Shown: positions 24,281 through 61,776 of the stretch, in pieces
Layout of the letters: each line of letters begins with the position of its first letter
How positions within the stretch are numbered: the first letter of the stretch is position 1
Assembly (NCBI RefSeq): GCF_006345805.1
Contig: NC_043020.1
Span: 13,888,001 to 13,952,000 of the forward strand
Reading direction: 5' to 3'
DNA from: Octopus sinensis
Taxonomy: Eukaryota
Length of the DNA: 64,000 bases
Position numbers and translations under genes: made by a program
Notes under the pieces: model-generated
Told to the model about the DNA's origin: nothing
What the model saw: only the letters and a program-made list of their open reading frames with translations
The model's database searches: none

Positions 24281-24348
24281 ATGTCCCAGTGTGCAGCATT
24301 GAATTGCAAGAGTGTAACGTCAGAAGGTAGCGGCAAAACCTTTCATTT
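24281..24348 (+). CDS. Exon 1: N-terminal half of THAP domain
   Basis: ATG, MSQCAALNCKSVTSEGSGKTFH, tt|gtgagt donor; CxxxxC...FH pattern of THAP. Confidence 0.85.
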
Positions 24349-27300
24349 GTGAGTATAAATCTATTATTATACTTGACAAAAAATCCCCGTAAATTAAAAA
24401 AAATATTTTGATAAATTAATAATTATTTGAATTATTTGCAGCCGGATTATTTCTTTTTACAAATATTGTATTTAACGTTTTAAACATTTTTTTTTAAGGA
24501 ATATTTTCGATAAAAAGTAGTAAAATATTTTTTCCATTCATTTCCTAACACGTGGTTTTATTTATTTATTTATTTTATTTTATTTTTAATAATTTAATGT
24601 AAGCAATAACGTAACGGCAATGCCCTTAAAATCCTTTTTGTAGGGGTCCCTTTATAATATTAGGATTGCTATGGTTGATTTTTCGGATCTTTTCGGTTTG
24701 AACGGCAGTTTTTTGAAATAATTTCCACGTAACTAAACACTTTTAAACTTTGTATACTGGTAGAATATGTTTATAAAACATCTTTTTCTCTTGGCTTTAT
24801 TGAGAAAATTCTATAGCTTGTAAGATATTTGGTCTTTAATTTCTTCAATTTCTGCAATTTCAACCAATCAATGACGTCTATTGAGGTAAAAAGAAAACAT
24901 TCTGTGCCGTATGAATATGTCCCTCGTTTAAGAAACAGATTGGGTTTATTTACATTTGTGAAGAAAAACAGATACCCTTCCCACTACCCCTAACCCTAAC
25001 CCTAAAATAGATTGAAATGCAATAGATCGATACTAGGGTCATAATTATGGGTGACAATTTCATATGACACCGCTAGAAAAAACTGCCGTTCAAACCGAAA
25101 ACATCCGATTTTTCAACTGTCAATGTATTACGGAAGAAATATGGACAGAATTCTGGTTTAAGCATCCCCATCTAACTCCTCATAACTTTTATATTTTTTT
25201 GAATTTCCATAAGATTTTTGCGAACGGGAATTCATACGATTATGGAAAATTTTTTTTTCATTCTTTTAAAACCCTACCCACCACTTTATAAATCCTAAAA
25301 GTTCCACTCTTTATCGGATTTTTTTTTGCATAAATTCCAGCAGGGGACCACCCTTGGATGCGTCATCATTCCATTAAATGTGTTTATGAGGAGAAAAATA
25401 TTGAGAAAGATATGTCAGGGTGGCAAATAAACGAGGACGGTATCAGGGGGTCATGGGATGTGCTAAAAACAACAGCTAAATCGTCCTTAAATCACAGTTT
25501 TTTTGGATTTTTTTACACAAGTGTATGAATTCCTGAATGTAGAACACAAATTCGCAAAAATTTTCGGAAAATTCCAGAAAAAAAAAAGTAAAAATCTTAT
25601 GGCGCAGGAGTGGCTGTGTGGTAAGTAGCTTGTCAACCAACCACATGGTTCCGGGTTCAGTCCCACTGCGTGGCATCTTGGGCAAGTGTCTTCTGCTATA
25701 GCCCCGGGCCGACCAATGCCTTGTGAGTGGATTTGGTAGACGGAAACTGAAAGAAGCCTGTCATATATATGTATGTGTGTGTATGTGTTTGTGTGTATGT
25801 GTTTGTGTGTCTGTGTTTGTCCCCCTAGCATTGCTTGACAGCCGATGCTGGTGTGTTTACGTCCCCGTCACTTAGCGGTTTGGCAAAAGAGACCGATAGA
25901 ATAAGTACTGGGCTTATAAAGAATAAGTCCCGGGGTCGATTTGCTCGACTAAAGGCGGTGCTCCAGCATGGCCGCAGTCAAATGACTGAAACAAGTAAAA
26001 GAGTATGGAGGATTATATGGATTTTGATAGAATTTCAGAGAGTTAGAGGAATGGGCAAAGCGTTTAGTGCGGTGACAATGGTGTTACTCCAGAGCAGTGG
26101 AAAACTGCCAGTGTTATCCCTCTGTTCAAAAAAGGTGACCGCACATCGCCTGTCAACTATTGCCCCGTTAGTCTTACTAGCTGCATCGCCAAACTGATGG
26201 AATCCTGTATCAGGGAAACCCTCTGGAACTTCTGGAAGTCTCACAGCCTCATCCAGCTGTCACAATTTGGATTTATTCCTAACTCCAGCTGCTGTAATCA
26301 ACTCATCGAGTTTCTTGAGGACGTTACCCAAATCACTGATCATGGATCCTGGGTGGATGTTGTTTACTTGGACTTTGCTAAGGCTTTTAACTCTGTGCCA
26401 CACAAAAGACTTATGGTGAAGCTCTCTGCGTTGAGCGTAAGAGACAAACTCTATAACTGGTTGATGTCCTTTATTTTCGGCCGAAAAAAGGTTGTCACAG
26501 TTCTAGGACAGCACTCTTCGCCCTATGAGATGACATGTGGTGTACCACAGGGATCTGTTCTTGGCCTCCTTTTATTTGTTGCATATGTTAATGAAGGCAC
26601 AAAAAAAGAAGATAATACAGCAAGTTTTGTCCAGAAGAGTAGGAGCCATTGTAGTAGCAGTAGATGACACAAAGAGATGAAGCCACACGTCTGTAACTTA
26701 ACAAATGCACAGCTGTTTATCTGTTATTATTAGACAGCATTACTGAGATCTTATTTGGGTACTACTTGAGAACAGTGGTCCCGGTGCGCGCACTTGCGTA
26801 GTCGCGCATCCGCGCTAGCCAGTCGTGGCTAGTCGATCCTACAATGACTACCTAGCAAAGTAAATAAAACACAAAATAGATAATTTTTTTTTCCTCAAAA
26901 CAAATTATTTTTGTTAAACAGGAGTGGCTGTGTGGTAAGTAGCTTGTTTACCAACCACATGGTTCCGGGTTCAGTCCCACTGCGTGGCACCTTGGGCAAG
27001 TGTCTTCTACTTTAGCCTCAGGCCGACCAAAGCCTTGTGAGTGGATTTGGTAGATGGAAACTGAAAGAAGCCCGTTGTATATATGTATGTATATATATAT
27101 ATGCGTGTGTGTGTGGTTGTGTGTCTGTGTTTGTCCCCCTAGCATTGCTTGACAACCGATGCTGGTGTGTTTATGTCCCCGTTACTTAGCGGTTCGGCAA
27201 AAGAGACCGATAGGATAAGTACTGGGCTTACAAAAGAATAAGTCCCGGGGTCGATTTGCTTGACTAAAGGCGGTGCTCCAGCATGGCCGCAGTCAAATGA

Positions 27301-30022
27301 CTGAAACTAGTAAAAGAGTAAAGTAAATCATTTTTTAAACAAAATAACACAAAAACACAAAGTAAGGATCGACTAGTCATGACTTGCTAGCGCAGATGCG
27401 CGACTACACGAGTGCACGCACCGGGACCACTGTTCTCAAGTAGTACCCTTATTTGTCCCTGTTGAGTAAATAAACTCTTATACCATTTAGTGGAATTTGT
27501 AGTTGTGATACCAGTGCCGGTGGCACGTAAGAGAACCATCCGAATGTGGCCGTAGCCAGCGCCGCTCTGACTGGCCTCCGTGCCGGTGGCACGTAACAAA
27601 CACCATCTGATCGTGGCCATTGCCAGCCTCGCCTGGCCTTCGTGCCGATGGCACGTAAAAAGCACCATCTGAGCGTGGCCATTGCCAGCCCCGCCCTGAC
27701 TGGTCTCCGTGCCGGTGGCACGTAACAAACACCATCCGATCGTGGCCGTTCGCCAGCCTCGCCTGGCACCTGTGTCGGTGGCACGTAAAAAGCACCCACT
27801 ACACTCATGGAGTGGTTGGCATTTGGAAGGGCATCCAGCGGTAGAAACACTGCCAGATCAGACTGGGCCTGGTGCAGCCTTCGGGCTTCCCAGACCCCAG
27901 TTGAACCGTTCAACCTATGCTAGCATAGAAAGCGGACGTTAAACGATGATGATGATGATTTAATGGAACAATTCTGTGAACGATAAGTTACAAGGATGTA
28001 AACACACCAGCACTAGTTGTTAAGCGGTTGTTGTGTTCATAGACAAACACAGACACGAAGATACACACACACATACATCATCATCGTTTAATGTTCACTT
28101 TCCATGCTGGTATGAGTTGGACAGTTAGACATGGTGCTGACTAGCAGGGAACTGTCTGGATTCCAACTGTCTGTTGTGGCATGGTTGGATGGCCTTCCTA
28201 ATGCCAACCACTTAACAGAGTGTGCTGGGTGCTTTTTATGTGCCACTAGCACGAGTACATTTATGCAACATTAGCACAGGTGTGATTACATAGCACAGCA
28301 CAGGTAGTGTTCCTATTTTTTTTTTGTACTAAAATATTAAAATAAAATCAATAAAGAATCTATGTAAGGTATACTAGCCATCTCAATATGGCTAACCAGT
28401 AAGGGTGGGTGTTACTTTAGCTTGTAGCCCCAAGAGATCATCGTCTCCAGCTGGCTTTAGGCACACTTTCTGTGCACTTATGATATTTGCAAAGGGAGGT
28501 CATCCCTCCCTCATCAACCTAGGTGACACGCACAGACTGCAGTTTCTAGGTGTTTGCCTGTCTTCAGCATACGGCAGTCACTGGTTGTCGATGAAGGGAG
28601 TCCCAATGCAAATCTTTATATCGAAAAACTGTATGCAGTTTTTCAAGATCAGTGACGAAAAGTTACTGGAAAAACCATATAAAGATTTGCATTGGGACTC
28701 CCTTCATCGACAACTGGTGACTGCCGTACATTGAAGACAGGCAAATACCTAGAAATTGCAGTCCGTGCGTGTCACCTAGGTTGACGAAGGAGGGATGACC
28801 TCCCTTTGCAAATATCATAAGGGCACAGAAAGTGTGCCTAAAGCCAGCTGGAGACGATGATCTCCTGGGGCTACAAGCTACAGTAACACCCACCCTTAGT
28901 GGTTAGCCATATTTAGATGGCTAGTATACCTTACATTGTCGTGCAGTTACTGTTTACATCTCGTTCAGAGATTTATTATTGCAATAAAGAATCGCTATAC
29001 ACTTATTCATGTTTGTAACAAAATATCTTCTTTTGGCACTTACAGATTCCCCAAAGATGCCATTCAACGGCAATGTTGGCTGCTCGGAATGAAACGAGAA
29101 AACTATTGGCCTTCAGAGACATCTGTGTTATGTTCCAACCACTTTGAACCTGACTGCTTTGACCAAATCGGTCAAACAACTCAGCTAAGAAAGGATGCAA
29201 TTCCCACCATATTTAAAACTACAAATAGTCTTAAAAAGGTAAGATGTTATTTCATCTCATCACTCTACATCGGTTTTCCCATCATCACCATCACAGTCAT
29301 CATTGTTTTAACGTCTATTTTTACATAACTGACATGGGTCTGTCGTGCAGTTTACTGCTACTCATCTTCATCTTCATCATCATCATCATTTAGCGTCCGC
29401 TTTCCATGCTAGCATGGGTTGGGACGGTTCAACTTGGGTCTGGGAAGCCAGAAGGCTGCACCAGGCCCAGTCTGATCTGGCAATGTTTCTACAGCTGGAT
29501 GCCCTTCCTAATGCCAACCACTCCGTGAGTGTAGTGGGTGCTTTTTGCGTGCCAGATGTGGCTGGCAAACGGCCACAATCGGATGGTGTTTTTTACGTGC
29601 ACGGAGGCCAGTTGGGGTGGCGCTGGCAACGGCCACATTCGGATGGTGCTTTTTACGTGCCACCGGCACGGAAGCCAGTCGGGGCGGCACTGGCAACGGC
29701 CATGTTCGGATGGTTCTCTTGTGCTACCGGCACTGGTATCACAGCTACAATTTCCATTGATGTTGATCGATTTTGATTTTGATTTCATTTTTTTTTTATC
29801 ATCTCAACTCTGGAGCTCTCTAGCCTGAGATCTGATCACATGCAGTGTCCTCTTTCTTCATGCCCCATGTGGCACTATCAAGTGCCTTTCCTACATGTTA
29901 AACAAGGTCACTTCTCAGATGATGCTGGGTTTTTTGTCATGCACTTTAAAGAAGTTCATTTGCTTTAAAGAAGATCCAAGGAAAATATGAATAACAACAA
30001 TGTAACTTCAGCTTCACTAATG

Positions 30023-30063
<41 letters not shown>

Positions 30064-33000
30064 CCTTGGAAATACTCTACAATCTAGATGTATTGTAAAA
30101 TGCTTCTTTACGTTTCTTATTTCTTTACTGCCCACAAGGCGCTATACACAGAGGGCACAAACAAGGACAGACAAACAGATTGTCAATTATATCGACCCCA
30201 GTGCTTAACTGGTACTTATTTAATCAACTTCAAAAGGATGAAAGGCAAAGTCGACCTCAGTGGAATTTGAACTCAGAATGTAGCGGCAGATGAAATACCA
30301 CTAAGCATTTCACCCGGTGTGCTAACGTTTCTGCCAGCTCGCGGCCTTTACGTTTCTGTCTACCAAATCCAATCCCAAGGCTTTAGTCGGCCAGGGCTAC
30401 GGTAGAAGATACTTCTCCAAGGGTGTCATACAGTGGGATTGAACCCAGGTCCATGTGGTTGGGAAGTAAACTTCTTACCACACAGCCACCCCTGCACCTC
30501 AGGGATGGCTGAGTCTTTTATGCTGTCAAACACAGTACATAATTATAACATTGTGCAATTAAATTTCATAGTGTATTATTCATTGTTTATATTTTTGTGT
30601 TACAGCTTTCCACATCCATTCAGCCAATGTTGAAAGGAGGACTTTACAAATGCAACAAGTGTAAATACTCGACAGACAAAAAGCCAAACTGGTACAAACA
30701 TAGGAATAAACATTTAGGTAGGTGAACATATTTCTATTTAATAGCTTAATAACTATTTCTTTACTACCCACAAGGGGCTAAACACAGAGGGGACAAACAA
30801 GGACAGACAAAAGGTTTAAGTCGATTACATCAACCACAGTGCGTAACTGGCACTTAATTTATCGACCCCGAAAGGATGAAAGGCAAAGTCGACCTCGGCG
30901 GAATTTGAACTCAGAATGTAGTGGCAGACAAAATACCTATTTCTTTACTACCCTCAAGGGGCTAAACACAGAGGGGACAAACAAGGACAGACAAATGGAC
31001 TAAGTCGATTACATCGACCCCGAAAGGATGAAAGGCAAAGTCGACCTCGGTGGAATTTGAACTCAGAACGTAACGGCAGACGAAATACGGCTACGCATTT
31101 CGCCCGGCGTGCTAATGTTTCTGCCAGCTCGCCGCCTTTTAATAGCTTAATACCTATTTCTTTATTACCCACAAGGGGCTAAACACAGAGGGGACAAACA
31201 AGGACAGGCAAACGGATTAAGTCGATTACATCGACCCCAGTGCGTAACTGGTACTTAATTTATCGACCCCGAAAGGATGAAAGGCAAAGTCGACCTCGGT
31301 GGAATTTGAACTCAGAACGTAACGGCAGACGAAATACGGCTACGCATTTCGTCCGGCGTGCTAACGTTTCTGCCAGCTCGCCGCCTTTTAATAGCTTAAT
31401 ATACCATTGCTTTCATACACACACAGACACACACTCATACGCACACACTCCAAACCATACACATGCATGCGTACTATCGAAGACATCGCAGGATGTGTTG
31501 AATGACTGCAAAGAGGAAATCTATATGACAGATTTTGCTGCTGTTTCTATGCGGCATTATTAAGTGTCTGCTAGAAATAGCAGCAAAATCTGACTTGTAT
31601 CACACCTTAACTTTAAAAAAATCATTTTGAGATAATGTACTCTTAGATACATTCATCATTATCATCATCCTCATCATCATCATCCTTTAACGTCCGTTTT
31701 TCATGCTGCCATGGGTTGGACCATTAAACCTACACTTCAAAGCCACAGTCGAACCAATTCTACTATATGGCTCAGAAACCTGGACGTTATCAAAGAAGCT
31801 TGAGAGGCAGTTAGATGGAACCTACACTCGCCTCCTTATGAGAGCTCAAAATCTCTCGTGGAGGCGCCATCCAACCAAAATGCAAATATATGGGAAACTA
31901 CCACCTGTGTCATCTCTTGTGAAAGGTGGGAGAGTCCAGTTTGCTGGACATTGTTGTAGAGCTGAAAACAAGGCAATTTCTACTCTTCTCCTCTGGAAGC
32001 CATCTACTCGCAATACCAGAGGGCGCACACTCTCCTACCCTGATGTAATCTCCAGGGTTACCGGCATCCAGCAACAGGACCTCCGTAATGCTATGATGGA
32101 CCGTGAAGTCTGGCGTAGCATGGTAAATTCCATTGTCTCAACCACGGTCAAACAATGATGATGATGATTAAACCTAAAAGAAAATGGGATTGTCACAGCT
32201 GGAATGTCTTTGATCCCCTGAACATGTGCATGGTGTGCAACGTGAAACGAAGTGTGTTCTGCTCAAAAATGCATCCCTCTACCCAACTCTAGGAATTGAA
32301 TTGTGATCGTGAGTGTAACACCTTCACCATTGAACCACTCACCTTCATGCGTGTGTGTTTGTGTGATGTGCATCTATACATGTATGTAGATGGCTGTGTG
32401 ATTTTAAGGTCTAATTTGCAACCTTGTGGTTTGGGGGTTTGGTCCCAGTGCACTGCTCCTTGTGTATCTTCTGTTGCCCCAGGCTGATTAATGCCATGTA
32501 GAGGAAATTGGTAGGCATTTCAACTGTGTGGTCTCAAGTTCAATCCCACTACATGACACTTTAGGCAAGTTTCTTCTACCATGGCCTCAAGCAAAAGGGA
32601 CTGATAGAGTAAGTACCAAACTTAAAAATAATAAATACTGAGTTTGACCCATTCAACTAAAATGCTTCAAGGTGGTGCCCCAGCATGGCCGCAGTCTGAA
32701 ACAAATGAAAGATAAAATATCACAAGGAATCTGGTCCACAGGTCCATGGCCTGGGATTGGTATTTTATTATTGATCAAATCCAAAATCAAAATCGATCAA
32801 CATCAATGGAAATTGCAGTTGTGATACCAGTGCTGGTGGTACGTTGGTATGTAAGAGAACCATCCGAACGTGGCCGTTGCCAGCACCGCCTCGACTGGCC
32901 TCGTGCCGGTGGCACGTAAAAAGCACCATCCAATCGTGGCCGTTTGCCAGCCTTGTCTGGCACCTGTGTCGGTGGCACGTAAAAAGCACCCACTACACTC

Positions 33001-36000
33001 ACGGAGTGGTTGGTGTTAGGAAGGGCATCCAGCTGTAGAAACATTGCCAGATCAGACTTGGCCTGGTGCAGCCTTCTGGCTTCCCAGACCCCAGTTGAAC
33101 CGTCCAACCCATGCTAGCATGGAAAGCGGATGCTAAACGAGGATGATGATGATGATCATCATAGGAGAATGAAAGGTAAAAGTTGGCCTTGATGGGATTT
33201 GAACTCAGAGCCGAGACAATTGGAGCAAATACTGCAAGGCTTTTGCAATCCAATACTCTACTGACTGTACCAAATCATCTCAAAAACAAAATGTTGGTCC
33301 ACTGCCACAATACTGCTTACACCTGTCCTAACAGTGCCAATCTCTAATTGTAGAGGAGCATGTGGAAGGGATAGACCCAGGTAAACATGGGACGAAGTGG
33401 GGAGAAAGGATCTTCAGACGTTGGACCTCACAGAGGGGATGGCAAGGGAACCAGAACTCCTAGGAGTTTGCTGTGCTTGAGAAGACACGTCAAACTAAGT
33501 AAAATTGTGGTTGTCTTTGCATCCCTCTTCAGCTGAACATTCCTAATTTTGCAGGCTCATGGGTGCTGGCACTGCACAAAAAGCACCCATGCTGGTGCTG
33601 TGCAAAAGCATCCCGTACACTCTGTAAAGAGGTTGGCATTAGGAAGGGCATCCAGCTATAGAAATCATGCCAAAACAGACATGAAGCCCAGGCAGCTCTT
33701 CAGTTGGCCAGGTCCTGTCAAATCGTCCAACCCATGCCAGCGTGGAAAATGAATGTTAAATGATGATGATGAGGAGGAGGCTGAAGAATACCCTGTTCCA
33801 TGACTGTGAAACAGAGCACTGTGTAACCAAATTTAAATTTTTTTTTGTCTTTGGTCAGTAAGTGTTATTTCCTATTTGCTTCTATCTTGAAATCAAAGGA
33901 AAAGACTACCATTCCCTTCAAACTTTGTTTTTCCGACCTGAACATCAATGTCTTGAAACTGACCTATTTTCCATTACACTTCAAACAGATTCAGCACTGA
34001 CTTGCTGAAGCAGAAATATCATTATAGCAAATATTCTGTCCATTACCAGAGATTTGCTTGTCAGTTGCTTGATTGCAACCACTTGAGTATGTCTCTTAGT
34101 GGCTGACAATATGTGCATCTCTGATCATGAGCAGGAGTAGTTGGGGAGTATCATAGCCATGAGTTGAAAGGAATTCTTAGGAGTTTGAATAAATGTAGCA
34201 ATAGCAAAGTTTGAAGGCTTTATTAGCCATTTTAAGGCGACAAGCTGGCCGAAACATTAGCACACCGGGCGAAATGCGTAGCCGTATTTCGTCTGCCGTT
34301 ACGTTCTGAGTTCAAATTCCGCCGTGGTCGACTTTGCCTTTCATCCTTTCGGGGTCGATTAAATAAGTACCAGTTACGCACTGGGGTCGATATAATCGAC
34401 TTAATCCGTTTGTATGTCCTTGTTTGTCCCCTCTGTGTTTAGCCCCCTGTGGGTAGTAAAGAAATAGGTATTTCGTCTGTCGTTAGGTTCTGAGTTCAAA
34501 TTCCGCCGAGGTCGACTTTACCTTTCATCCTTTCGGGGTCAATAAAAAAAGTACCAGTTTCGCACTGGGGTCGATATAATCGACTTAATCCATTTGTCTG
34601 TCCTTGTTTGTCCCCTCTATGTTTAGCCCCTTGTGGGTAGTGAAAAAAAAAATTTTACATGGCAAATAGAAAATTACAATTGTTACCCAATGATAAAAAT
34701 TGTTTTAATGATGTGACTTATTGAAAATATTGATTTAAGTTGATATTTCTGACTTACTGGCTTTTTTAACGAGGAGTTTCAAACTGCAATATTTCCGAAA
34801 TGCTCCTAATATATTTGGTTTATCATTCAGGTTTACGACGCCACTGTTGTACAGAATGTAACTACAAAGCAACGACAAGCAGCAACCTCAAGCGCCACCT
34901 GGCAATCCATGCGGATCTTAGGGAATTCAAATGTCCCTTTTGCTATAATTTCTTTCGCCAAAAGATTCACCTGGACAAACATATACTCTATAAACATGAG
35001 GTAACTAAAAAATGTTGTTTTAAGAATTTCATTTCCTAGCACAAAGCCACCTCCTTCATCGAACGTCTGTTTTCCATGCTGGCATGGGTTGGACAGTTCG
35101 ACAGGGGCTAGACAGCCAGAGAGCTACCCAGGATCTGTTTGTCTATTTTGGCTTAGTATCTAAAGTTGAATCATCATCATCATCATTTAGCGTCCGCTTT
35201 CCATGCTAGCATGGGTTGGACGGTTCAACTGGGGTCTGGGAAGCCAGAAGGCTGCACCAGGCCCAGTCTGATCTGGCAATGATTCTACGGCTGGATGCCC
35301 TTCCTAATGCCAACCACTCCGTGAGTGTAGCGGTTGCTTTTTACATGCCACCGGCACAGGTGCCAGACGAGGCTGGCAAACGGCCACGATCAGATGGTGC
35401 TTTTTACGTGCCGCTGGCACGGAGATCGGACGGTGCTTTTTACGTGCCACCGGCACAGGTGCCAGACGAGGCTGGCAAATGCCCACGATTGGATGGTGCT
35501 TTTTACGTGCCACCGGCACGGAGGCCAGACGAGGCTGGCAAACGGCCACGATCGGATGGTGTTTGTTACTTGCCACCGGCATGCTAATGCCAACCACTTT
35601 GCACAGTGTGCTGGGTGCCTTTTACGTGAGTGCTTTTTATGTGAAACTGACATGGGTACTTTTTATGTGAAACTGGCATGGGTCCTTTTTATGTGGCGCT
35701 GACATGAATGCTTTTTACATGGCATCAGTACAAGCACCTTTTACATGGCATTGGCATGAATGTTTCTTTCATGGTGCCAGCATGAGAGCCTTTTAAATGG
35801 CGCCGGCAAAACAGCTTTTCTGTTGTGCTAGCACAAGTGCTTTTTACATGGCACCAACACAAGTGCTTTTTATGTGGCACCAGCATGAGTGCTTTTCACT
35901 GAAATGGAGAAGTTATTGTTCTCAACGACGGACAGAAATAGATAGAGATGCGAGTTGTAGCCAAAACAGTTGAGTTTGTGAGAAATAATGCTGTTGACCT

Positions 36001-39000
36001 CAAGATACAGCTTTTAGCTATGTCACATGTTTCAAATTTTTGCATTTAGCTACCTTCTTTTATTCTTTAACTTGTTTCAGTCACTTGGTTGCAGCCATGC
36101 TGGAGCACCACCTTGGGGGGTTTTAGTCAAAAAAATTGATTCCAAGACTTATTCTTTAATCCTAATACTTGTTTCTTTTGCCAAACTGCTAAGTTACAGG
36201 GATGTAAACACACCAACACTGGTTGTCAAGCGGTGATGGCGGGACAAATACAGACACAAGACATACATACATACATATATATGCATACATATATGAGAGG
36301 CTTCTTTCAGTTTCTGTTTACCAAATCCACTGACAAGGCTTTGGTCAGCCTGAAGCTATAGTAAAAAAGACATCTGCCCAAAGTACCACGCAGCAGGGCT
36401 GAACCCAGAACCATGTGGTTGGGAAGCAAGCTTCTTACCACACAGCCATGCCTGTAATGATTTTTATTAATTACACTATCACTAATTAACATGTTTAAAT
36501 ATTCTTTTCTTTCTCAGCGCAAAAGATCAAAGTTGGACCTGACCAAAGCGTTAAGCCGTGAAGCACTGAAAAGGGTTTCCTCTCCTAAAGTTAACACAAA
36601 AGATTCCCAGCTAAATACGGACCTTTACAATCAAGACAGAATCCTTAAACCAATTCAGATCTGGTAACTTAATATTTCTTTAACCCCCTTAGCATAAAGG
36701 TTACTTTATCAAATGTACTGTATTTGATGGCCTATAAGACACACAAGTGCATAGGACGCACCTTAGCCCTGGCTATACTTTAGTAAAATAAATTAAAATA
36801 ACTTTATGTTATTACTGGTAATTATAAGCAATTTATTGCATCCACATTCAATATAAACATACCATACGAGTGTGATCATTGACAGAGCGGCTAACCGGCT
36901 TCTGTGCCAGTGGCACTTAAAGGGCACCATTCGAGCGTGATCGTTACCAGCATCGCCTTACTGGCACTTGTGCCCGTGCTAGTAGGGTGCCAAGAGCACC
37001 ATCTGAGGGTGATTGGCTTCTGTACCAGTGGCACGTGTAAAAGGATTTGAGCGAGGTCGTTGCCAGTACCGCCTGACTGGCCCCCGTGCCGGTGGTACAT
37101 AAAAAGCACCCACTACACTCTCGGAGTAGTTGGCATTAGGAAGGGCATCCAGCTGTAGAAACTCTGCCAAATCAAGATTGGAACCTGGTGCAACCATCTG
37201 GTTTGCCAGCCCTCAGTCAAAATCATCCAACCCATGCTAGCATGGAAAGTGGACGTTAAACGATGATGATGATGATGATACTGTAGGCGATTGTTCACCT
37301 ATAGATAGCAACACATGTTTTGTAAACATACATACCGTTTTGAGCCTACATTAAGTGCATTGGATGCCATTTTGGGATAAAAAAAAGGTGTGTTTTATTG
37401 GCCATCGAATATGGTAATTCTTACTGATTCACATTGTTTTGAATTACCCCTGCATTGTCTTGTAGCTTTGAGATTTCAATGATAATCTTTTATTCTTTTA
37501 CTTGTGTCAGTCCTTTGACTGTGGCCATGCTGGAGCACCACCTTGAAGGGTTTTAGCCAAACAAGCTGACTCCAGGACTTATTTCTTTTTTAAGCCTAGT
37601 ACTTATTCTATCAATTTCTTTTGCTGAACTGCTAAGTTGTGGGGATGTAAACACACTAACACCTGTTGTCAAGCAGTGATGGGGGGATAAACATAGACAA
37701 AAAGATACACACACACACATATATACGACGGTCTTCTTTCAGTTTCTGTCTACCAAATCCACTGATAAGGCTTTGGTAGGTCCTAGGTTTTAAAAGAAGA
37801 CACTTGCCCACGTTGCCACGCTGTGAAACTGAACCCAGAACCATGTGGTTGAGAAGCTAGCTTCTTACCACACAGCCACACCTGTGTTAATAATTGTATA
37901 TTTTTAGAACGACATTGTAGGGTAGGTGTGAAAGGTCAGATCCAGCCAGTTTGAACACAGTTGGATGTAGTTTGGAGGAGATTTGGTCGTTATGTTTAGC
38001 AAGTCAAAATTACCACAATCAACTTGTTGGTTCCAGTTTCCGTCTACCAAATCCACTGATAAGACTTTGGTAGGTCCTAAGTTTTAAAAGAAGACACTTG
38101 CCCAAGGTGCCACGCTGTGAAACTGAACCCAGAACCATGTGGTTGAGAAACTAGCTTCTTACCACACAGCCACACCTGTGCTTATAATTGTATATTTTTA
38201 GAACGGTGGCGAGCTGGCAGAAACGTTAGCACACCGGGCGAAATGCTTTGCGGTACCTCGTCCGCTGCTGCGTTCTGAGTTCAAATTCCGCCGAGGTCCA
38301 CTTTGCCTTTCATCCTTTCGGGGTCAATAAATTAAGTACCAGTTACGCACTGGGGTCGATGTAATCGACTTAATACCTATGTCTGTCCTTGTTTGTCCCC
38401 TCTGTGTTTAGCCCCTTGTGGGTAATAAAGAAATATGTATATTTTTAGAACGACATTGTAGGGTAGGTGTGAAAGGTCAGATCCGGCCAGTTTGAACAAA
38501 GTTGGATGTAGTTTGGAGGAGATTTGGTTGTTATGTCTAGCAAGTCAAAATGACCACAATCAACTTGTTTGTTCCTAATTATTTTGTTGTTTATTTTTCT
38601 TTTTATTTCAACTTAGTTGTCTTTTATGGTAAATAGGAACATTAATCTTGAGATTTATTTGAAGGGAGATTCCTGAAGATCCGGTTCCTTTATCCGATGG
38701 TAAACATGATGAGCAGAGTTCCGAACAGGAACTTCAGTTTTCCGAACAAAAACCACAATACTCAGAAAATAATCAGCAATATTCCCAGCAGGAACTTCGG
38801 TATTCCGACCAAGACGATGCCGTTCCTCCAATGGTCTATGTTCCACCCCGCTCCAAGAAAGTCCATATTGTCTCTGAGCATCAGTACCATGTCATGGAAA
38901 GTTTGGCACAACTCTGGAAGAAAGGCAAATTGTGTGATGCTGCCATCGGAAATGGAAGTTCTGTGTTGATGGTGAGCCTCGACTGTTTTCAATTTTGTTT

Positions 39001-39478
39001 TTTTCTCTCTTTTACTTGTTTCTGTCATTGGACTGTGGCCATGCTGGGGCACCACTTTGAAAAATTTTTTAGTCAAATGAATCGACCTCAGGGGTTATTA
39101 TATCAGCTTTATGGTACTTATTCTATTGGCCTCTTTAGCCCTACTGCTAAGTTATGGGGATGTAAACAAACCAACATTGGTTGTCAGGTGGTGGTAGGGG
39201 ACAAATGCAGACACAAAGACACACACTCTCTCACACACACACACACTCATATATATATCTATAAATGATCTAATATCTATACAGCCTTGGTGCTTTATCT
39301 TATTACGCAAAAAAATTCTTATATACACACGCTGACATAGAACCAACATTGAACCCTTTATTCACAATATTACCGAATATGGAACTTAACTATGGTCTGT
39401 CTATAGAACTTATTCAGCATTACCTGACACCTTTGGGTCTCAATGACACCATTATCTCTTATAACCTCAACTTCTCGC

Positions 39479-39514
<36 letters not shown>

Positions 39515-42500
39515 ACAACTTCTTTCAGTTTCCATCTACCAAATCCACTCACAAGGCTTTGGTCAGCTCAAGGCTATAGTAGAAGACACTCACCCAAGGT
39601 GCCATGCAGTGGGACTGAGCCCAGAACCATATGGTTAGGAAGCAGACTTCTTGCTACACCTCTGGTACAAATTGAAACAGTTTAACCAAACTGTCAAAAT
39701 TTAGGATATGTTTGCATTTTTTAACATTTCATTAATTTGTAGTGATCATTTCATGATGAATTTAAATGTTTGTGGGCAATATTCAGTGATCTACCTGTTT
39801 CTTGGTCAGCTTGACCATGTTATATGGTGTGACAAACTGGGTTACATCATGTTTCAGTAGCTCCATATTTCACTGGGCAGGTGAAATTAACGAGCTGGCA
39901 GAAACATTAGCATGCCGAGCGAAATGCTAAGCGGTATTTGGTCTGTCTTTACGTTCTGAGTTCAAATTCCGCCGAGGTCGACTTTGCCTTTCATCCTTTC
40001 AGGGTCGATAAATTAAGTACCAGTTACGCACTGGGGTCGATATAATCGACTTACTCTGTCTGTCTGTCCTGTTTGTCTCCTCTGTATTTAGCCCCTTGTG
40101 GGTAGTAAAGAAATAGGTATTTCGTCTGTCTTTACATTCTGAGTTCAAATTCCGCCAAGGTCAACTTTGCCTTTCATCCTTTCGGGGTTGATAAATTAAG
40201 TAGCAGTTAACGCTCTGGGGTCGATGTAATCGACTTAATCCTTTTGTCTGTCCTTGTTTGTCCCCTCTATGTTTAGCCCCTTGTGGGCAATAAAGAAATA
40301 AGAAACCATGCCAAATCAGAATGGAACCTGGTGCAGCTCCCAGCTTACCAATTTTCAGTCAAACTATCCAACCCATGCCAGCATGGAAAGCAGATGTTAA
40401 ACAATGATTATGATGTTCTTTTCTTTTGTCTCGTGACCTCACTAGTGCTGATGGCACACAAAAAAAAAATGGAAAAACACCCACTGGTTGGTGTTAGGAA
40501 GAGCATCCAAATGTAGAAACTATGTGAAACCTGACATTGAAGCTTGATGCAGCTCTGCAGCTCATTTGATCCTGCCGAAACAGCCACTCCATGCCATCAT
40601 GGAAAGTGAACAGATTTCCATTGAAATCTGTTATTTCTGTGTTTAGGCGCAGGAGTGGCTGTGTGGTAAGTAGCTTGTTTACCAACCACATGGTTCCGGG
40701 TTCAGTCCCACTACGTGGCACTTTGGGCAAGTGTCTTCTACTATAGCCTCGGGCCGACCAAAGCCTTATGAGTGGATTTGGTAGACGGAAACTGAAAGAA
40801 GCCCGTCGTATATATGTATATATGTGTGTGTATGTGTTTGTCTCCCTAGCATTGCTTGACAACCGATGCTGGTGTGTTTATGTCCCCGTCACTTGGCAGT
40901 TCGGCAAAGGAGACCGATAGAACAAGTACTGGGCTTACAAAGAATAGGTCCCGGGGTCGATTTGCTCGATTAAAGGCGGTGCTCCAGCATGGCCACAGTC
41001 ATAATGAATGAAACAAGTAAAAAGAGAAAAAAAACCCTTTAATATTCAGATTTTTCTGTCAGATGTAAAACTTCTTCATTCACATTACTTTAAACTAATT
41101 ATACATTATGTTGTAGCTTTGAGATTTTGATGATGTGATTGTTTGTTTTTAGAAGGACATTATTGGGAAGGTGTGAAAAACCAGATTTAGCTGGTTTGAG
41201 CATAAAACAATAAGAATATCTGGGCCGGATGTAACCAGTTTAAATGGTAAAGGGTTAGATTTAATAATAATAATAATAATAATTGTGTACAGTGCTCAGG
41301 TGCACTACAACTCATCTAAAGTGTATATATAATCAGGTGTAGTTTCGGTGGATTTCGGAAAGCATGAGGGCCTTAAAGGATGCAGTGTCATGGCAGTCAA
41401 CAACTGATGCAGGCAGTTTATTCCATGCTTCAGCAACTCTGAGCGTGAAAAAATGTTTCCGAAAGTCATGGGAGCTGTGTTGTTTTCTGAGTTTGTAGGC
41501 ATGTCCATGTGTGTTAGACACATGGGGATCAAAAAGGTGTTCAGTGTTGTTGTTGGTGAGGTGGTTGATAACTTTGTGGGTTTTTACCAAGTCCGTCAAG
41601 AAATTTTCAGGATTTAGTTAAAAAAAAAACCTTTCATTATTGAACATGTGTTTGGAACATGATACAAAATTATACTGGAAAGTTTTAATTTAAATACAAC
41701 CCATCTTAACAGTGGCATTTTTCTATCACAGAGCCAGAGAAAAGGTCAAACAGTTTGGTATCAAACAAAAGGTTAGCATGAGATAAATATTACAACATTT
41801 TCATCTTTCACGTCCGTTTTAATTATTATTATTATTATTAAACTATTTAACTATGCAATCTTCATTTGCAGGTTCACAAGATCGTCTTACTTGCTGTCTG
41901 TCCGAAGCTACTTTCAACCGTTGATACATACTACAACCAGTTTCTTATGGTCAACCTACCCCAAACTGTGAGCAGTGAAGCTCTCAATGCTTTTGCAGAA
42001 TACATTTACAAGGGTCACTTAAACCTGGACCCAGATTTGCTGAATCAATTAAGGACAATAGCACTATGTTTAGAAATTGATGATTTGAAGCAATTATGTG
42101 ATTCGGAAAGTGATTCATCTTCCTCTAAGGGCCAGCTCCCTAACAGTAAGAAAGCCTCTGATCCAGCACCTGACACAATAACCCTTACGTTTTATCCTCC
42201 ACAAACGCAACAGTCATCAGAAAATGAAGTCAATTTATCGAGTTCCTTTGCTGTTTCCAGCCATAATCTCCAATCAGTTATGAAATCGCAAGCTAATGTT
42301 ACAATTAAGAAAGAAATGACCCCAGGTAAAGCACAACTGACTCGTTTCCCGTCTCAAAAAGACCTGGTTGAACCAAAAAGTAGCGCGAATCTGGTCAATG
42401 TAGCGAGATCGGAGGTAAGAGATATTTACGAACATTTTCAGAATAACGATTTAGTTAGCACATCGATTGCTGTCTGTGATGAAGAACAGAACTTGACGTC

Positions 42501-43032
42501 TCACGTCAAATCGACGCCTCTCGATGTCAATCTACAACAGTATACTTATCTCCCTTTAAATGATCGCTCTCAAGTCCCACCAGAACCCACTTCATCCCTT
42601 CACGATGCAGCCGTTAATAATTTTTCTCCAGTAAATCATCCGGAACCCCCTTTAGAATCTCTTGTTAAAATGGAACCGGTTATCATTGAAGATGATTCCG
42701 ACGATGATTCTCTCTTACCGTCGCCATCTTCGACTTTCATGGATTCGTCCCATATCTCTTCTTCCAGACCCATCGATGACAGCTTATCAGAAATAATCAC
42801 CACCAACTGTTCAACTAACCTGAGCGACTCGTTAACAAACAATCACTGCCAAGACGGCACCAATTCCCCAGGCATCAATTTATCTCATATTGCTGTTAGC
42901 AGTCGGCATAAAGGAGATTCTTTTTTGAATCCTGAAATATTTCGGTATAATCGTCAAGTCGAAAGACATTTTACATCGAAAGAGATTAATTCAACACTGA
43001 ATGACGAAATCTACACTAAAGATTTTAGATAA
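24281..43032 (+). CDS. Predicted 718-aa THAP + 3x C2H2 zinc finger + BTB/POZ transcription factor; exons 24281-24348, 29046-29238, 30606-30717, 34831-35000, 36518-36663, 38665-38971, 41872-43032
   Basis: Seven GT-AG exons with phases 2,0,1,0,2,0 join into an open 2157-nt frame. THAP C2CH: MSQCAALNC...TFHLFP..W..P...LCSNHF...DAIPTIF. There are three C2H2 fingers. BTB: LWKKGKLCD...VHKIVLLA...FAEYIYKG. That all exons share one mRNA is inferred. Confidence 0.8.
24685..25106 (+). mobile_element. Same MITE family with 8-bp TSD (Merlin-like)
   Basis: TSD GATTTTTC at 24677-24684 and 25107-25114; GG termini plus an 8-bp TSD are typical of Merlin/IS1016. Confidence 0.8.
25601..26005 (+). mobile_element. 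tRNA-derived SINE family A (other copies ~4194, 8970, 22723, 26919, 36060, 37488, 39005, 40646, 43755, 56070, 59825, 63520)
   Basis: Head ggcgcaggagtggctgtgtggtaag (box A) ... gggttcagtccc (box B), central (TA/TG)n, tail gaaacaagtaaaagag; many near-identical dispersed copies. Confidence 0.9.
26040..26592 (+). mobile_element. CR1-clade LINE reverse transcriptase fragment
   Basis: QFGFIP..SC..QL, VDVVYLDFAKAFNSVPH, GVPQGSVLG. Confidence 0.9.
26758..27447. mobile_element. Merlin-like MITE (~85-bp GC-rich TIRs) with nested SINE
   Basis: ggtactacttgagaacagtggtcccggtgcg... / ...cgcaccgggaccactgttctcaagtagtacc; TSD CTTATTTG at 26750-26757 and 27448-27455. Confidence 0.8.
27505..27958 (+). mobile_element. 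SINE family C with internal tandem ~60-bp units and (GAT)n tail (others ~1838, 3678, 5415, 11600, 29376, 32775, 35171, 36866, 45900, 49006, 57829)
   Basis: gtgccggtggcacgtaaaaagcacc units, then ggttggcgttaggaagggcatccag...catggaaagcggacgttaaacgatgatg. Confidence 0.88.
28529..28573 (-). ncRNA. Type I hammerhead ribozyme motif (intact core, weakened stems)
   Basis: Reverse complement: CGTATG-CTGAAGA-CAGGC aaac ACCTA-GAAAC TGCA GTC-TGTGCG. Confidence 0.65.
28725..28769 (+). ncRNA. Degenerate type I hammerhead motif
   Basis: CGTACA-TTGAAGA-CAGGC aaat ACCTA-GAAAT TGCA GTC-CGTGCG; C3U core change. Confidence 0.5.
29046..29238 (+). CDS. Exon 2: C-terminal half of THAP domain
   Basis: tacag|attcccc...aaaaag|gtaag; FPKDAIQRQCWLLGMKRENYWPSETSVLCSNHFEPDCF...LRKDAIPTIF (AVPTIF box). 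Confidence 0.93.
30606..30717 (+). CDS. Exon 3: C2H2 zinc finger 1
   Basis: ttacag|ctttcc...catttag|gtagg; YKCNKCKYSTDKKPNWYKHRNKH. Confidence 0.85.
31716..32168 (+). mobile_element. RTE-like LINE 3' fragment (also 46170-46490 -, 310-480 +)
   Basis: ILLYGSETWTL...LDG.YTRLL...FAGHC.R...DRE.WR; (GAT)n tail. Confidence 0.8.
34831..35000 (+). CDS. Exon 4: C2H2 zinc fingers 2 and 3
   Basis: cattcag|gttta...catgag|gtaac; CTECNYKATTSSNLKRHLAIH and FKCPFCYNFFRQKIHLDKHILYKH. Confidence 0.92.
36518..36663 (+). CDS. Exon 5: basic linker (NLS-like RKRSK)
   Basis: tttctcag|cgcaaa...atctg|gtaac; open frame, phase 0/2. Confidence 0.7.
36716..37415. mobile_element. pogo-type MITE with nested SINE
   Basis: tactgtatttgatggcctataagacacac ... 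gtgtgttttattggccatcgaatatggta. Confidence 0.6.
38665..38971 (+). CDS. Exon 6: Q/S/E repeat linker and start of BTB domain
   Basis: tttgaag|ggag (weak AAG acceptor, the first one after an in-frame TGA); ends HVMESLAQLWKKGKLCDAAIGNGSSVLM|gtgag. Confidence 0.8.
41872..43032 (+). CDS. Exon 7: rest of BTB domain and long S/P/D-rich C-terminus
   Basis: atttgcag|gttcac; VHKIVLLAVCPKLL...EALNAFAEYIYKGHL...ALCLEIDDLKQLC; largest ORF in the window (388 aa in the track). Confidence 0.93.
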   Translation, partial: VHKIVLLAVCPKLLSTVDTYYNQFLMVNLPQTVSSEALNAFAEYIYKGHLNLDPDLLNQLRTIALCLEIDDLKQLCDSESDSSSSKGQLPNSKKASDPAPDTITLTFYPPQTQQSSENEVNLSSSFAVSSHNLQSVMKSQANVTIKKEMTPGKAQLTRFPSQKDLVEPKSSANLVNVARSEVRDIYEHFQNNDLVSTSIAVCDEEQNLTSHVKSTPLDVNLQQYTYLPLNDRSQVPPEPTSSLHDAAVNNFSPVNHPEPPLESLVKMEPVIIEDDSDDDSLLPSPSSTFMDSSHISSSRPIDDSLSEIITTNCSTNLSDSLTNNHCQDGTNSPGINLSHIAVSSRHKGDSFLNPEIFRYNRQVERHFTSKEINSTLNDEIYTKDFR

Positions 43033-43064: not shown

Positions 43065-43410
43065 CAGATAACCCGTGGACATATTTACAAAGTAAGAAAA
43101 CAGCACAGCTCCCATGACTTCAGGAAACATTTTTTCACGCTGAGAGTTGCTGAAGCGTGGAACAAACTGCCGGCATCGGTTGTTAGTTGTCGGAGCACTG
43201 CATCCTTCAAAACTTCCATGCTTCCTGAGATTCGCCAACACTACACCTGATTTTCTCCCCTCCATACACACACAAGCCTGTATCTGACTCATACATTGTT
43301 CGCTTTCCAGACATTTGTACATTACTGCATATGCTTTATACGCACTTTCTGACAAGTTGTGGTGCACTTGAGCACTGAATACAATAATTTCATTATTATT
43401 ATTATTATTA
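43065..43410 (+). mobile_element. CR1-clade LINE 3' end, second family (also 41270-41598 -, ~10765-10993 +)
   Basis: TRGH.YK......FRKHFFTLRVAEAWNKLP, (ATT)n tail. Confidence 0.85.
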
Positions 43411-60698: not shown

Positions 60699-61726
60699 CG
60701 GGCCTCTTTCAGTTTCTGTCTACCAAATCCACTCAAGGCTTAGGTCGGCCCGAGTCTATAGTAGAAAACACTTGCCCAAGGTGCCACGCAGTATTGAACC
60801 CAGGACCATGTGGTTAATAAGCAAGCTACTTACCACACAACCACTCCTCCGCCTATCTCTCATCTTAGCACACAAAAAAGATTAAATATTTAAAAGATTT
60901 TATTTCATTTTCCAAAATTTCCTATAATTTGAAGTTAGAAGCTTTTCCAGATAAACATATCAAATATATCTTATTTTTGTAAATATTCTTTATTTTCAGG
61001 TAATCCACAACAACCTCAAAAAACTAGATCTGTCCGCATCTTCAGTTACAGAAGCTGGCTTAGTCAACTTAAATCAATGTTCTAAACTTCAAAATCTTAA
61101 CCTTAGTTCTTACCATCAAGAAATTCGATTTTCATCACCATGTAAGTTTTTGAATGTCTGTTGTTTTAAATCCTATTATAATTTTCTAGAATTGTTCCCC
61201 CAAATGTGTAACCCTTTAGTGTTCAGATTATTCAATCAAACATAATGCTTATTGATTTACATTGATTTGAATTAATCATGAATTATCTCATATCTTCAAG
61301 ATCTTGATGGTGTAATTACTTAATGTAGAATAACATTGTAGGGTAGGTGCGAGGGCCTGGATCTGGTCAGTTTGAACATAAAACAGATTAACTATTTTGG
61401 CCAGATATGGCCGGTTTAAATACTAAAGGGGTAAAAACTAAATTCAAATTTGTTTTTTCTGAAAATTATTTTCATTATCTCTTTTTTTGAACTTCTCTTT
61501 CCTCACAGGTCTCATCAATTCCATCAAGCATTGCCTTTCTATTCAAGTATTGAATCTAAGTCGTTGTCACAATGTTGATGATGCTACTGTGGTTGCTTTG
61601 TCTAGATCCTGCCGGAATATTCATTGTTTAAATTTAAGCCAATGTTCCAAAGTCACAGACGTAGCAATGCAAGCTCTGGGAGAAAATTGCCATTACTTGA
61701 GGAGTATAGACTTCAGTAGAAATTCA
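51727..61726 (+). CDS. AMN1: AMN1-like leucine-rich repeat protein, 5' part; exons 51727-51782, 57650-57782, 61000-61141, 61509-61726
   Basis: Phase-consistent GT-AG exons: [28 protein letters not shown]...[62 protein letters not shown]...-CLINSIKHC...[19 protein letters not shown]...[25 protein letters not shown]. This is colinear with recalled human AMN1 (LPPNIKDRL..MS.QG.ITD, LDL...I.DA.L..L..C.KL..LNL, ALG.NC..L..VDFS). Confidence 0.9.
52305..53768. repeat. Tandem array, ~320-bp unit x ~4.5, in AMN1 intron 1
   Basis: cc(c/a)gtataaaaagatatttatgttta at 52305, 52627, 52946, 53268; partial restart at 53441. Confidence 0.92.
54740..55082. mobile_element. Fold-back (almost fully palindromic) relative of the same MITE family
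   Basis: gatctttttcttttgaacggcacatg...catgtgccgttcaaaaggaaaagatcc; arms ~150 bp. Confidence 0.75.
56400..57570 (+). mobile_element. Decayed mariner (Tc1/mariner) transposase pseudogene
   Basis: ATG at 56507 ([16 protein letters not shown]); degenerate WVTHKL (WVPHEL), [15 protein letters not shown] and [13 protein letters not shown] motifs with stops and frameshifts; right TIR ...gcattatttatgggatgacccaata. Confidence 0.9.
57650..57782 (+). CDS. AMN1: AMN1-like exon 2
   Basis: ccactag|atct...aagaat|gtaagt. Confidence 0.9.
58833..59552. repeat. Tandem duplication (~370 bp x2) of (TA)n plus a Penelope-like tail
   Basis: ttaattttgtagat(c/t)cttgc(TA)n...ttagagataaaaccactatt occurs twice; the tail resembles ttagagacaaaaccactatt at 60182. 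Confidence 0.6.
60267..60309 (-). ncRNA. Type I hammerhead ribozyme, exact inverted copy of 60527-60569
   Basis: ccactacaattgtttcttgtcttgatcgacaatcttcaggtgg is the reverse complement of the + strand motif. Confidence 0.85.
60527..60569 (+). ncRNA. Minimal type I hammerhead ribozyme (canonical core)
   Basis: CCAC-CTGAAGA-TTGTC gatcaa GACAA-GAAAC AATT GTA-GTGG. Confidence 0.85.
61000..61141 (+). CDS. AMN1: AMN1-like exon 3
   Basis: ttttcag|gtaatc...ccat|gtaagt; LRR LKKLDLS. Confidence 0.9.
61509..61726 (+). CDS. AMN1: AMN1-like exon 4
   Basis: ctcacag|gtctc...aattca|gtaggt; cysteine-containing LRRs. Confidence 0.92.
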
Positions 61727-61756
61727 GTAGGTCACTTATTTTCTTCACTGCTATGC

Positions 61757-61776
61757 ATACACACACACACACACAT

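What the first reader, a model, noticed from the sequence alone, without database searches (positions are those of the whole stretch)
24281..43032. Transcription factor with atypical THAP - (C2H2)3 - BTB architecture
Seen: seven phase-compatible exons give a single 718-aa ORF. Established: THAP domains are N-terminal and related to the P-element transposase DNA-binding domain, and ZBTB proteins normally have an N-terminal BTB with C-terminal fingers. Here the BTB is internal and follows two different DNA-binding modules, a combination I do not recognise from named genes. The THAP exon pair ends in phase 0 and could have been added by exon shuffling. SUMO-type motifs (IKKE, VKME), a SIM-like VIIEDDSDDD and RKRSK fit a nuclear regulator. 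Inference: a lineage-specific chimeric transcription factor.
Basis: partly seen in the sequence, partly recalled or inferred. Interest (0 to 1): 0.75.

Follow-up and report, generated by a model that had tools for sequence, protein, structure and literature searches.

The report
Octopus regulator with borrowed zinc fingers
This octopus gene encodes one protein that joins a THAP DNA-binding domain, three zinc fingers likely copied from an older mollusc gene, and a BTB domain predicted to pair, so it likely acts as a gene regulator that reads part of the older gene's DNA sites.

Summary
Confirmed. Seven exons give a 718-aa ORF, identical to RefSeq LOC115223897, with THAP, three C2H2 fingers and an internal BTB. 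The THAP-to-finger junction is spliced in 4 of 4 runs; the later junctions rest on contig lengths and annotation.

THAP-before-BTB is not unique. The gene belongs to a coleoid family with at least 25 two-exon BTB cassettes in this genome, fronted by transposase-type DNA-binding heads. The scan noted that family on other DNA, and a paper's supplement lists the orthologue as 'THAP BTB'.

What is new is the fingers. Exons 3-4 match two internal exons of a conserved mollusc zinc-finger gene on another contig: same internal and 3' splice sites, an identical 170-nt exon length, a frame-neutral phase 0-0 block, pS 0.93 against pN 0.17, and 8 of 9 main base-contact residues kept. Only the three Octopus orthologues, of 263 proteins held, carry all three domains. 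Likely a dimeric regulator sharing part of the donor's DNA sites; DNA binding is untested.

The parts
24281..24348 (+). Exon 1 (coding part): ATG and first THAP half (C4, C9); ends in phase 2
   Evidence: same intron position and phase in the C14 paralogue and in one THAP head of the C3 array
29046..29238 (+). Exon 2: second THAP half (C52, H55, AIPTIF box); ends in phase 0
   Evidence: PF05485, E 1e-11; covered and spliced to 30606 in 4 of 4 runs; best PDB sequence match human THAP2, E 1.2e-16
30606..30717 (+). Exon 3: zinc finger 1, 112 nt, phase 0 to 1; counterpart of a predicted 109-nt phase 0-to-1 exon of the donor gene at G000:C3:90098860-90098968
34831..35000 (+). Exon 4: zinc fingers 2-3, 170 nt, phase 1 to 0; counterpart of a 170-nt donor exon at G000:C3:90100390-90100559 (70% nt identity)
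36518..36663 (+). Exon 5: basic patch and linker, phase 0 to 2; same position and phases as the first constant exon of the C3 array (236 nt, 0 to 2)
   Evidence: positional match only, no sequence likeness shown
38665..38971 (+). Exon 6: Gln-rich linker and start of the BTB (N-terminal strand and helix 1), phase 2 to 0
41872..43032 (+). Exon 7 (coding part): rest of the BTB and a low-confidence (likely disordered) tail with SUMO-like and SIM-like motifs; stop codon
   Evidence: whole stretch held by public runs

Best explanation
This is one expressed octopus gene of a coleoid family that puts DNA-binding heads in front of a shared BTB cassette, and it likely gained three extra zinc fingers when two internal exons of an older mollusc zinc-finger gene were copied into the intron behind its THAP head. 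The copied block starts and ends in phase 0, so it fitted without breaking the frame. The protein is predicted to dimerise through a ZBTB-type BTB. It would then present two THAP and two three-finger modules, and bind part of the donor factor's site (finger helices nearly unchanged), possibly next to a THAP site. The BTB and the SUMO-like tail would bring in partners or co-regulators. Shown: exon structure, ORF, THAP-to-finger splice, family membership, match of exon borders. Inferred: order of events, dimer, DNA target, regulatory output.
For: ORF and identical RefSeq protein. Junction in 4 of 4 runs and contig-length fit. O. sinensis against O. bimaculoides: THAP 84/87, finger exons 93/94, BTB 113/114, but linker 103/118 and tail 268/305, so all three domains are conserved. 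Donor: single best genome hit, E 1.7e-21 against 3.8e-7 for the next; same 170-nt exon and borders; finger-1 exon with the same donor site and a predicted phase-0 acceptor; pS 0.93 and pN 0.17 over 82 codons. 14 of 14 donor-family proteins lack THAP and BTB. Positions -1/3/6 are KNK, TNR, QHK against KNK, TNR, QHR in the octopus donor. Family: same phase-0 intron inside the BTB in 23 of 25 cassettes by my pattern; the other two are supported and protein P0019. The C14 paralogue is THAP then BTB with no finger hit. BTB fold: best Foldseek hits are mostly ZBTB/Bach/BCL6 BTBs. Homodimer model: score 0.70 against best control 0.00, at least 84% contact agreement, pLDDT at least 85; the mark was reached by 17 of 29 eukaryote homodimers (animals 7 of 16) and 0 of 30 single chains; solved ZBTB dimers exist, so the pass may come from likeness.
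Against: The runs are 'RNA?' guesses held as contigs. The O. vulgaris record is named after the O. sinensis protein, so it is not independent. The THAP tree does not pair the window THAP with the C14 THAP: C14 goes with gar THAPs at 95/81, and the best match of the window THAP is a Babylonia THAP+ZF protein at 53%. BTB trees leave window, C14, C23 and C3 unresolved. So 'THAP-BTB first' rests on phases and layout, not on a tree. The finger tree has 0 of 17 supported forks, so the copy cannot be dated. No unique intron likeness to the donor remains; the matches are multi-hit repeats. The fingers have low confidence in the AlphaFold model. No DNA-binding data exist.
Confidence: 0.72

Rival explanations
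1. Same protein, other order: a finger-BTB gene formed first and the THAP exon pair was added in front later.
For: THAP exon 2 ends in phase 0. The window THAP is not sister to the C14 THAP. A Met sits at position 95 in exon 3 in all three species. The family takes on new heads repeatedly.
Against: Exon 3 is the counterpart of an internal donor exon and begins at an acceptor, so it needed an upstream exon. No finger-plus-BTB protein without THAP among 263 proteins held. A THAP-BTB paralogue without fingers exists and has an Argonauta orthologue.
Confidence: 0.15
2. The fingers are kept for protein or RNA contacts, or to interfere with the donor factor, and THAP alone sets the DNA target.
For: Only fingers 1-3 of a longer array were copied. 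The copy has drifted: 71% identity to both the octopus donor and the Sepia protein, against 86% between those two.
Against: 8 of 9 positions at -1/3/6 are kept although synonymous sites are near saturation, as expected if base reading is under selection.
Confidence: 0.1
3. The model fuses two neighbouring genes (THAP-fingers and BTB).
For: The exon 6 acceptor is weak.
Against: Contig lengths in two studies fit the full model. 718-aa models in O. sinensis and O. bimaculoides records. No other head found in introns or within 34 kb upstream.
Confidence: 0.03

Closest known systems
Octopus 'THAP BTB' and 'CENPB BTB' proteins in PMC10027918 (passages of main text and rows of supplementary file 3 read)
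   Same: The supplement lists the O. bimaculoides orthologue XP_014779299 / LOC106875595 as 'THAP BTB' (15 occurrences of that label in the file). The text says that Octopus THAP and CENPB proteins are mostly associated with BTB.
   Different: The row for this gene does not mention the fingers, and 'C2H2' and 'isoform' occur 0 times in the main text. The paper treats BTB as transposon-derived and does not describe exon structure or a donor gene.
Vertebrate ZBTB transcription factors (Miz-1/ZBTB17, BCL6, PLZF, ZBTB8A)
   Same: ZBTB-type BTB with N-terminal extension: best BTB sequence match Miz-1, fold matches, dimer model with residues 294-299 on the partner's 380-385; C2H2 fingers.
   Different: Order reversed (fingers before BTB), THAP added, fingers taken from an unrelated mollusc gene, only 20-26% identity to solved BTBs.
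Drosophila mod(mdg4) and lola (PMC11426971, passages read)
   Same: One BTB body combined with many DNA-binding modules (at least 30 and 20 isoforms). This fits the family's C3 locus.
   Different: There the BTB is N-terminal and TTK-type (FxLRWN motif, hexamers) and isoforms form by trans-splicing. Here the heads are 5', the BTB lacks that motif, all 28 head hits at C3 lie on the gene's strand, and the window gene has one fixed head.
Host-transposase fusion genes (bioRxiv 10.1101/2020.05.07.082677, abstract and passages read) and KCTD1b (PMC3212892, passages read)
   Same: New regulators by exon shuffling of DNA-binding domains; KCTD1b has a Crypton DUF3504 domain in front of a BTB, like the C23 paralogue here.
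   Different: In those fusions the captured piece is a transposase, in 8 of 9 cases through an acceptor in front of it. Here the traceable capture is two host exons from a conserved zinc-finger gene.
THAP1/THAP2-type proteins
   Same: Best PDB matches are human THAP2 (E 1.2e-16) and THAP1 (E 8e-11).
   Different: They have no BTB or C2H2 array (recalled). No transposase catalytic domain follows the THAP here.

Membership tests
THAP-domain protein | N-terminal C2CH zinc site with conserved P, W, F, P and an AVPTIF-type box (definition recalled) | tested here: met
   C4, C9, C52, H55, P25, W34, F56 and AIPTIF in the sequence; PF05485 58 bits against cut-off 23.9
THAP-domain protein | Sequence-specific DNA binding | not testable with these tools
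   no assay
ZBTB (BTB-zinc finger) | Dimerising BTB with N-terminal extension | tested here: met
   PF00651 38 bits against cut-off 20.5; fold matches; predicted dimer 0.70 against 0.00, possibly by likeness
ZBTB (BTB-zinc finger) | BTB at the N-terminus, C2H2 fingers C-terminal to it | tested here: not met
   fingers 103-180, BTB 311-413, no finger pattern after the BTB; works like a ZBTB, is not filed as one
TTK-type BTB (mod(mdg4), lola) | FxLRWN motif in the N-terminal extension (PMC11426971) | tested here: not met
   residues 294-302 do not carry it
Coleoid head-plus-BTB family | Two-exon BTB with a phase-0 intron before the xHK/xHR strand | tested here: met
   (23 of 25 cassettes by pattern, the window among them)
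Coleoid head-plus-BTB family | 5' DNA-binding head joined through a phase-0 acceptor | tested here: met
   C3 array donors and acceptor are phase 0
Coleoid head-plus-BTB family, multi-head type | Several alternative first exons on one BTB body | tested here: not met
   no further head hit in the window or 10 kb upstream; one unbroken contig across exons 2-3 in X1, X17 and X7; RefSeq name carries no isoform number
Autonomous P-element or other THAP transposon | Transposase catalytic domain behind the THAP | tested here: not met
   no such Pfam hit at E up to 0.1; exon 2 has one 100% match in the genome

The most novel reading that the evidence does not exclude
The family's phase-0 acceptor in front of the BTB cassette is a general landing site that takes in host transcription-factor exons as well as transposase heads. 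This gene would be the case in which the cephalopod BTB network captured the DNA-reading fingers of an ancient molluscan regulator, so that it and its BTB partners, perhaps including the many isoforms of the C3 array, are sent to that regulator's target genes in octopuses only.
Probability: 0.3. Interest if true: 0.72.

Novelty: new variant of a known kind. Interest (0 to 1): 0.5.

Why it matters
It is a clean case of a new transcription factor assembled by exon shuffling in which the donor exons, splice phases and retained recognition residues can all be pointed to. That gives a direct test: the chimera and the donor should share a DNA sub-site. It also extends an under-described cephalopod family, so far seen with transposase-type heads, to host-gene capture. 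The gene itself is annotated and listed in a supplement, and the wider family was already noted by this scan, which limits the surprise.

Tried and rejected
Fresh P-element origin of the THAP: no catalytic domain, closest to THAP2-type domains; whether it came from a host gene or a THAP-bearing transposon is unresolved. THAP and fingers arriving together from a THAP+ZF gene such as Babylonia P0101: its fingers are only 34% identical, against 55-72% for the donor family. ZBTB11 as source: 34% on a short stretch only. Finger tree: no supported fork. THAP tree: no supported set holds the window row. BTB trees: one search left out two cassettes for which my donor pattern failed; one search left out the frog ZBTB11 row, P0115, P0119, P0121 and the C11:12.85 Mb cassette. 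dN/dS between Octopus orthologues was not computed because no orthologous CDS was held as a stored sequence; three listed differences in one X9 contig are all third-position (two synonymous, one E to D), too few to weigh. No run is on record as RNA (no RNA holder listed). The top 150 of the 50% representative search are mostly long zinc-finger arrays, so absence of the family outside coleoids was not tested. Atlas: the BTB gives generic BTB clusters; the donor family could not be named there. Paper searches: THAP domain+BTB+C2H2+domain architecture, 0 papers; four LOC ids, 0; THAP+C2H2+BTB, 38 papers, 25 listed, none on this architecture by title or abstract start; one of them, PMC12111275, checked by passages, holds only family counts; some searches gave only PMC10027918 and PMC3212892 as relevant. 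Most subscription papers and bioRxiv supplements were not searchable. My early note that no head lies between the C3 BTB cassettes was wrong: one CENP-B-like hit lies between cassettes 1 and 2.
Full report
Observation. The translation is identical to P0001, RefSeq XP_029650480.1 / LOC115223897, named Octopus sinensis by its source; its cluster holds 718-aa O. vulgaris and O. bimaculoides proteins. Pfam finds THAP (4-79), C2H2 and BTB (311-413), and three finger patterns lie at 103-180. The window is G000:C24:13888001-13952000.

One transcript. Twenty of 24 listed runs, from 7 studies, hold exon 7; none is on record as RNA. On 29000-30745, 4 of 4 runs from 4 studies show the joint 29238^30606 with GT..AG ends and no cover in unique intron bins, so they behave as spliced RNA. 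I did not lay the later junctions. The contigs that carry exons 2-3 in X1 (2260 nt) and X17 (2285 nt) each run 1850 nt past exon 3. Exons 4-7 need 1782 nt, which predicts an end at 43100, 30 nt into a repeat starting at 43071, where such a contig would be expected to break. Against O. bimaculoides the three domains are nearly fixed (84/87, 93/94, 113/114) while linker and tail vary (103/118, 268/305).

The family. A genome search with the exon 7 BTB gave 26 matches, 21 of them at 43% identity or more. In 1.2 Mb fetched around them I found 25 two-exon BTB cassettes; 23 show the same phase-0 intron by my pattern, and the other two are supported and protein P0019. Upstream of them lie THAP, DUF3504, CENP-B, FLYWCH, Psq and Brinker-type heads. 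Sixteen of 30 THAP hits in the genome fall in these loci (one search read). Named relatives are from Octopus, Argonauta and Sepia; other molluscs were not properly tested.

The largest locus, G000:C3:139.74-139.93 Mb, has 28 head hits upstream of its first BTB, all on the gene's strand. RefSeq isoforms of its O. bimaculoides counterpart are numbered to X36; the 24 that I compared share a 534-aa C-terminus and differ in head. Four different upstream exons join one acceptor in RNA contigs: in 4 of 4, 2 of 4 and 3 of 4 runs as joints with short sides of 23-27 nt, and in 3 of 4 runs as a loose end. All four donors and the acceptor are phase 0. The scan's earlier notes describe this family on other DNA; I read them after reaching this reading. 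The window gene is a one-head member: no other head hit in the window or 10 kb upstream. Its phases before the BTB (0, then 0 to 2, then 2 to 0) match the constant exons of the C3 locus.

The fingers. Residues 92-189 match fingers 1-3 of long multi-finger proteins from Sepia (65%) and the gastropod Batillaria (63%). The octopus copy of that gene is at G000:C3:90.09-90.10 Mb, the only strong genome hit besides the window (E 1.7e-21; next 3.8e-7). Its finger 2-3 exon is 170 nt with the same phase-1 start and phase-0 end as window exon 4, at 70% nt identity. Its finger-1 exon ends at the same site as window exon 3 and has a predicted phase-0 acceptor giving 109 nt against 112 nt. Kept intron positions point to a DNA-level copy, not a retrocopy (inference). 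Over 82 codons pS is 0.93 and pN 0.17: the copy is old and constrained. None of 14 donor-family proteins has THAP or BTB. Positions -1/3/6 read KNK, TNR, QHK against KNK, TNR, QHR in the octopus donor. Among 263 proteins held, only the three Octopus orthologues match all three domains; the word-based searches could miss diverged orthologues.

Order of events. The finger block is phase 0-0 and copies internal exons, so it most simply entered the phase-0 intron behind a THAP head. The C14 paralogue has that finger-free layout, with the same THAP intron positions, and an Argonauta orthologue (99/98). The trees do not prove this: the two THAPs are not sisters, deep BTB forks are open, and the finger tree is unresolved.

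How it likely works. THAP is closest to human THAP2 among solved structures, and the BTB to Miz-1. AlphaFold models THAP and BTB with confidence, the fingers and tail without (only 2 of 25 rows had the fingers). The fold matches mostly ZBTB, Bach and BCL6 BTBs. A two-copy model of 290-415 scores 0.70 against 0.00 for the best of 3 controls, with at least 84% contact agreement and pLDDT at least 85; 17 of 29 eukaryote homodimers and 0 of 30 single chains reached the mark, and the pass may come from likeness to solved ZBTB dimers. I therefore read the protein as a dimeric regulator with two kinds of DNA reader, whose fingers likely keep part of the donor's specificity. The roles of the SUMO-like and SIM-like motifs are recalled from general knowledge; a SUMO-like motif is in the tail of 11 of 12 family proteins.

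What is in print. PMC10027918 (passages and supplement rows read) notes Octopus THAP and CENPB proteins with BTB and lists this gene's orthologue as 'THAP BTB'; 'C2H2' and 'isoform' do not occur in its main text. mod(mdg4) and lola are the functional analogues of the multi-head locus (PMC11426971, passages). KCTD1b is a precedent for a transposon domain in front of a BTB (PMC3212892, passages), and transposase capture is a known route to new factors (10.1101/2020.05.07.082677, abstract and passages). Searches found no description of the finger capture; subscription papers were mostly out of reach.

Verdict. A real gene and a new variant of a known kind: an ordinary one-head member of the coleoid head-plus-BTB family, made unusual by a traceable capture of host zinc-finger exons. 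Interest 0.5.

Noticed in passing
G000:C3:139,742,730-139,926,109 (- strand; L050-L072): Array of 28 DNA-binding-head hits on one strand in front of one BTB body; four upstream exons were seen joined to the same phase-0 acceptor in RNA contigs. Already noted by the scan.
   Followed up: yes
G000:C3:139,780,934-139,784,688 and 139,766,684-139,766,779 (- strand): Three half-THAP heads take their last zinc ligand (His) from a shared downstream linker exon.
   Followed up: partly
G000:C3:139,539,017-139,712,855 (- strand): Eleven further two-exon BTB cassettes in tandem behind the first, with only one head hit among them. A supplement row shows an O. bimaculoides model (LOC106877737) with a THAP head like one of the array's distal heads on a cassette of this type, so heads may also choose among BTB bodies.
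   Followed up: no
G000:C3:141.86-141.98 Mb, C16:36.65-36.72 Mb, C24:28.54-28.57 Mb, C2:41.60-41.65 Mb: Smaller loci with several heads in front of BTB cassettes; one group of models carries a DDE_3 or CG-1 domain.
   Followed up: partly
Proteins P0125/P0231 (cluster with Sepia records) and P0179/P0242: Same BTB body with THAP or FLYWCH, and with THAP or ZSWIM3_N heads, in transcript-type records, so head swapping likely extends to cuttlefish.
   Followed up: partly
G000:C3:139,743,353 region (L050:3353-3770, - strand): A head exon joined to the constant acceptor in 4 of 4 runs encodes a Cys/His-rich frame that my queries did not match; it resembles hAT-type TTF fingers (recalled).
   Followed up: no
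G000:C3:90.09-90.10 Mb: Donor gene: conserved, unnamed multi-finger protein with 14 relatives at 55-72% identity in fingers 1-3; its family name was not established.
   Followed up: partly
window 28362-28621 and 28677-28936: 260-nt inverted repeat, 94% complementary, 55 nt apart, in intron 1; MITE-like.
   Followed up: no
window 23971 and 24167: Two opposed CCGGAAGT (ETS-type, recalled) motifs upstream of the ATG, the only two in the window.
   Followed up: no
window 60955-61760 (+): Exons of a leucine-rich-repeat gene (LRR_6; AMN1-like, recalled), useful as a synteny marker.
   Followed up: no
window 26068-26667, 31691-32158 (+): Fragments of LINE-type reverse transcriptase frames in introns 1 and 3 (recognised from memory).
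   Followed up: no
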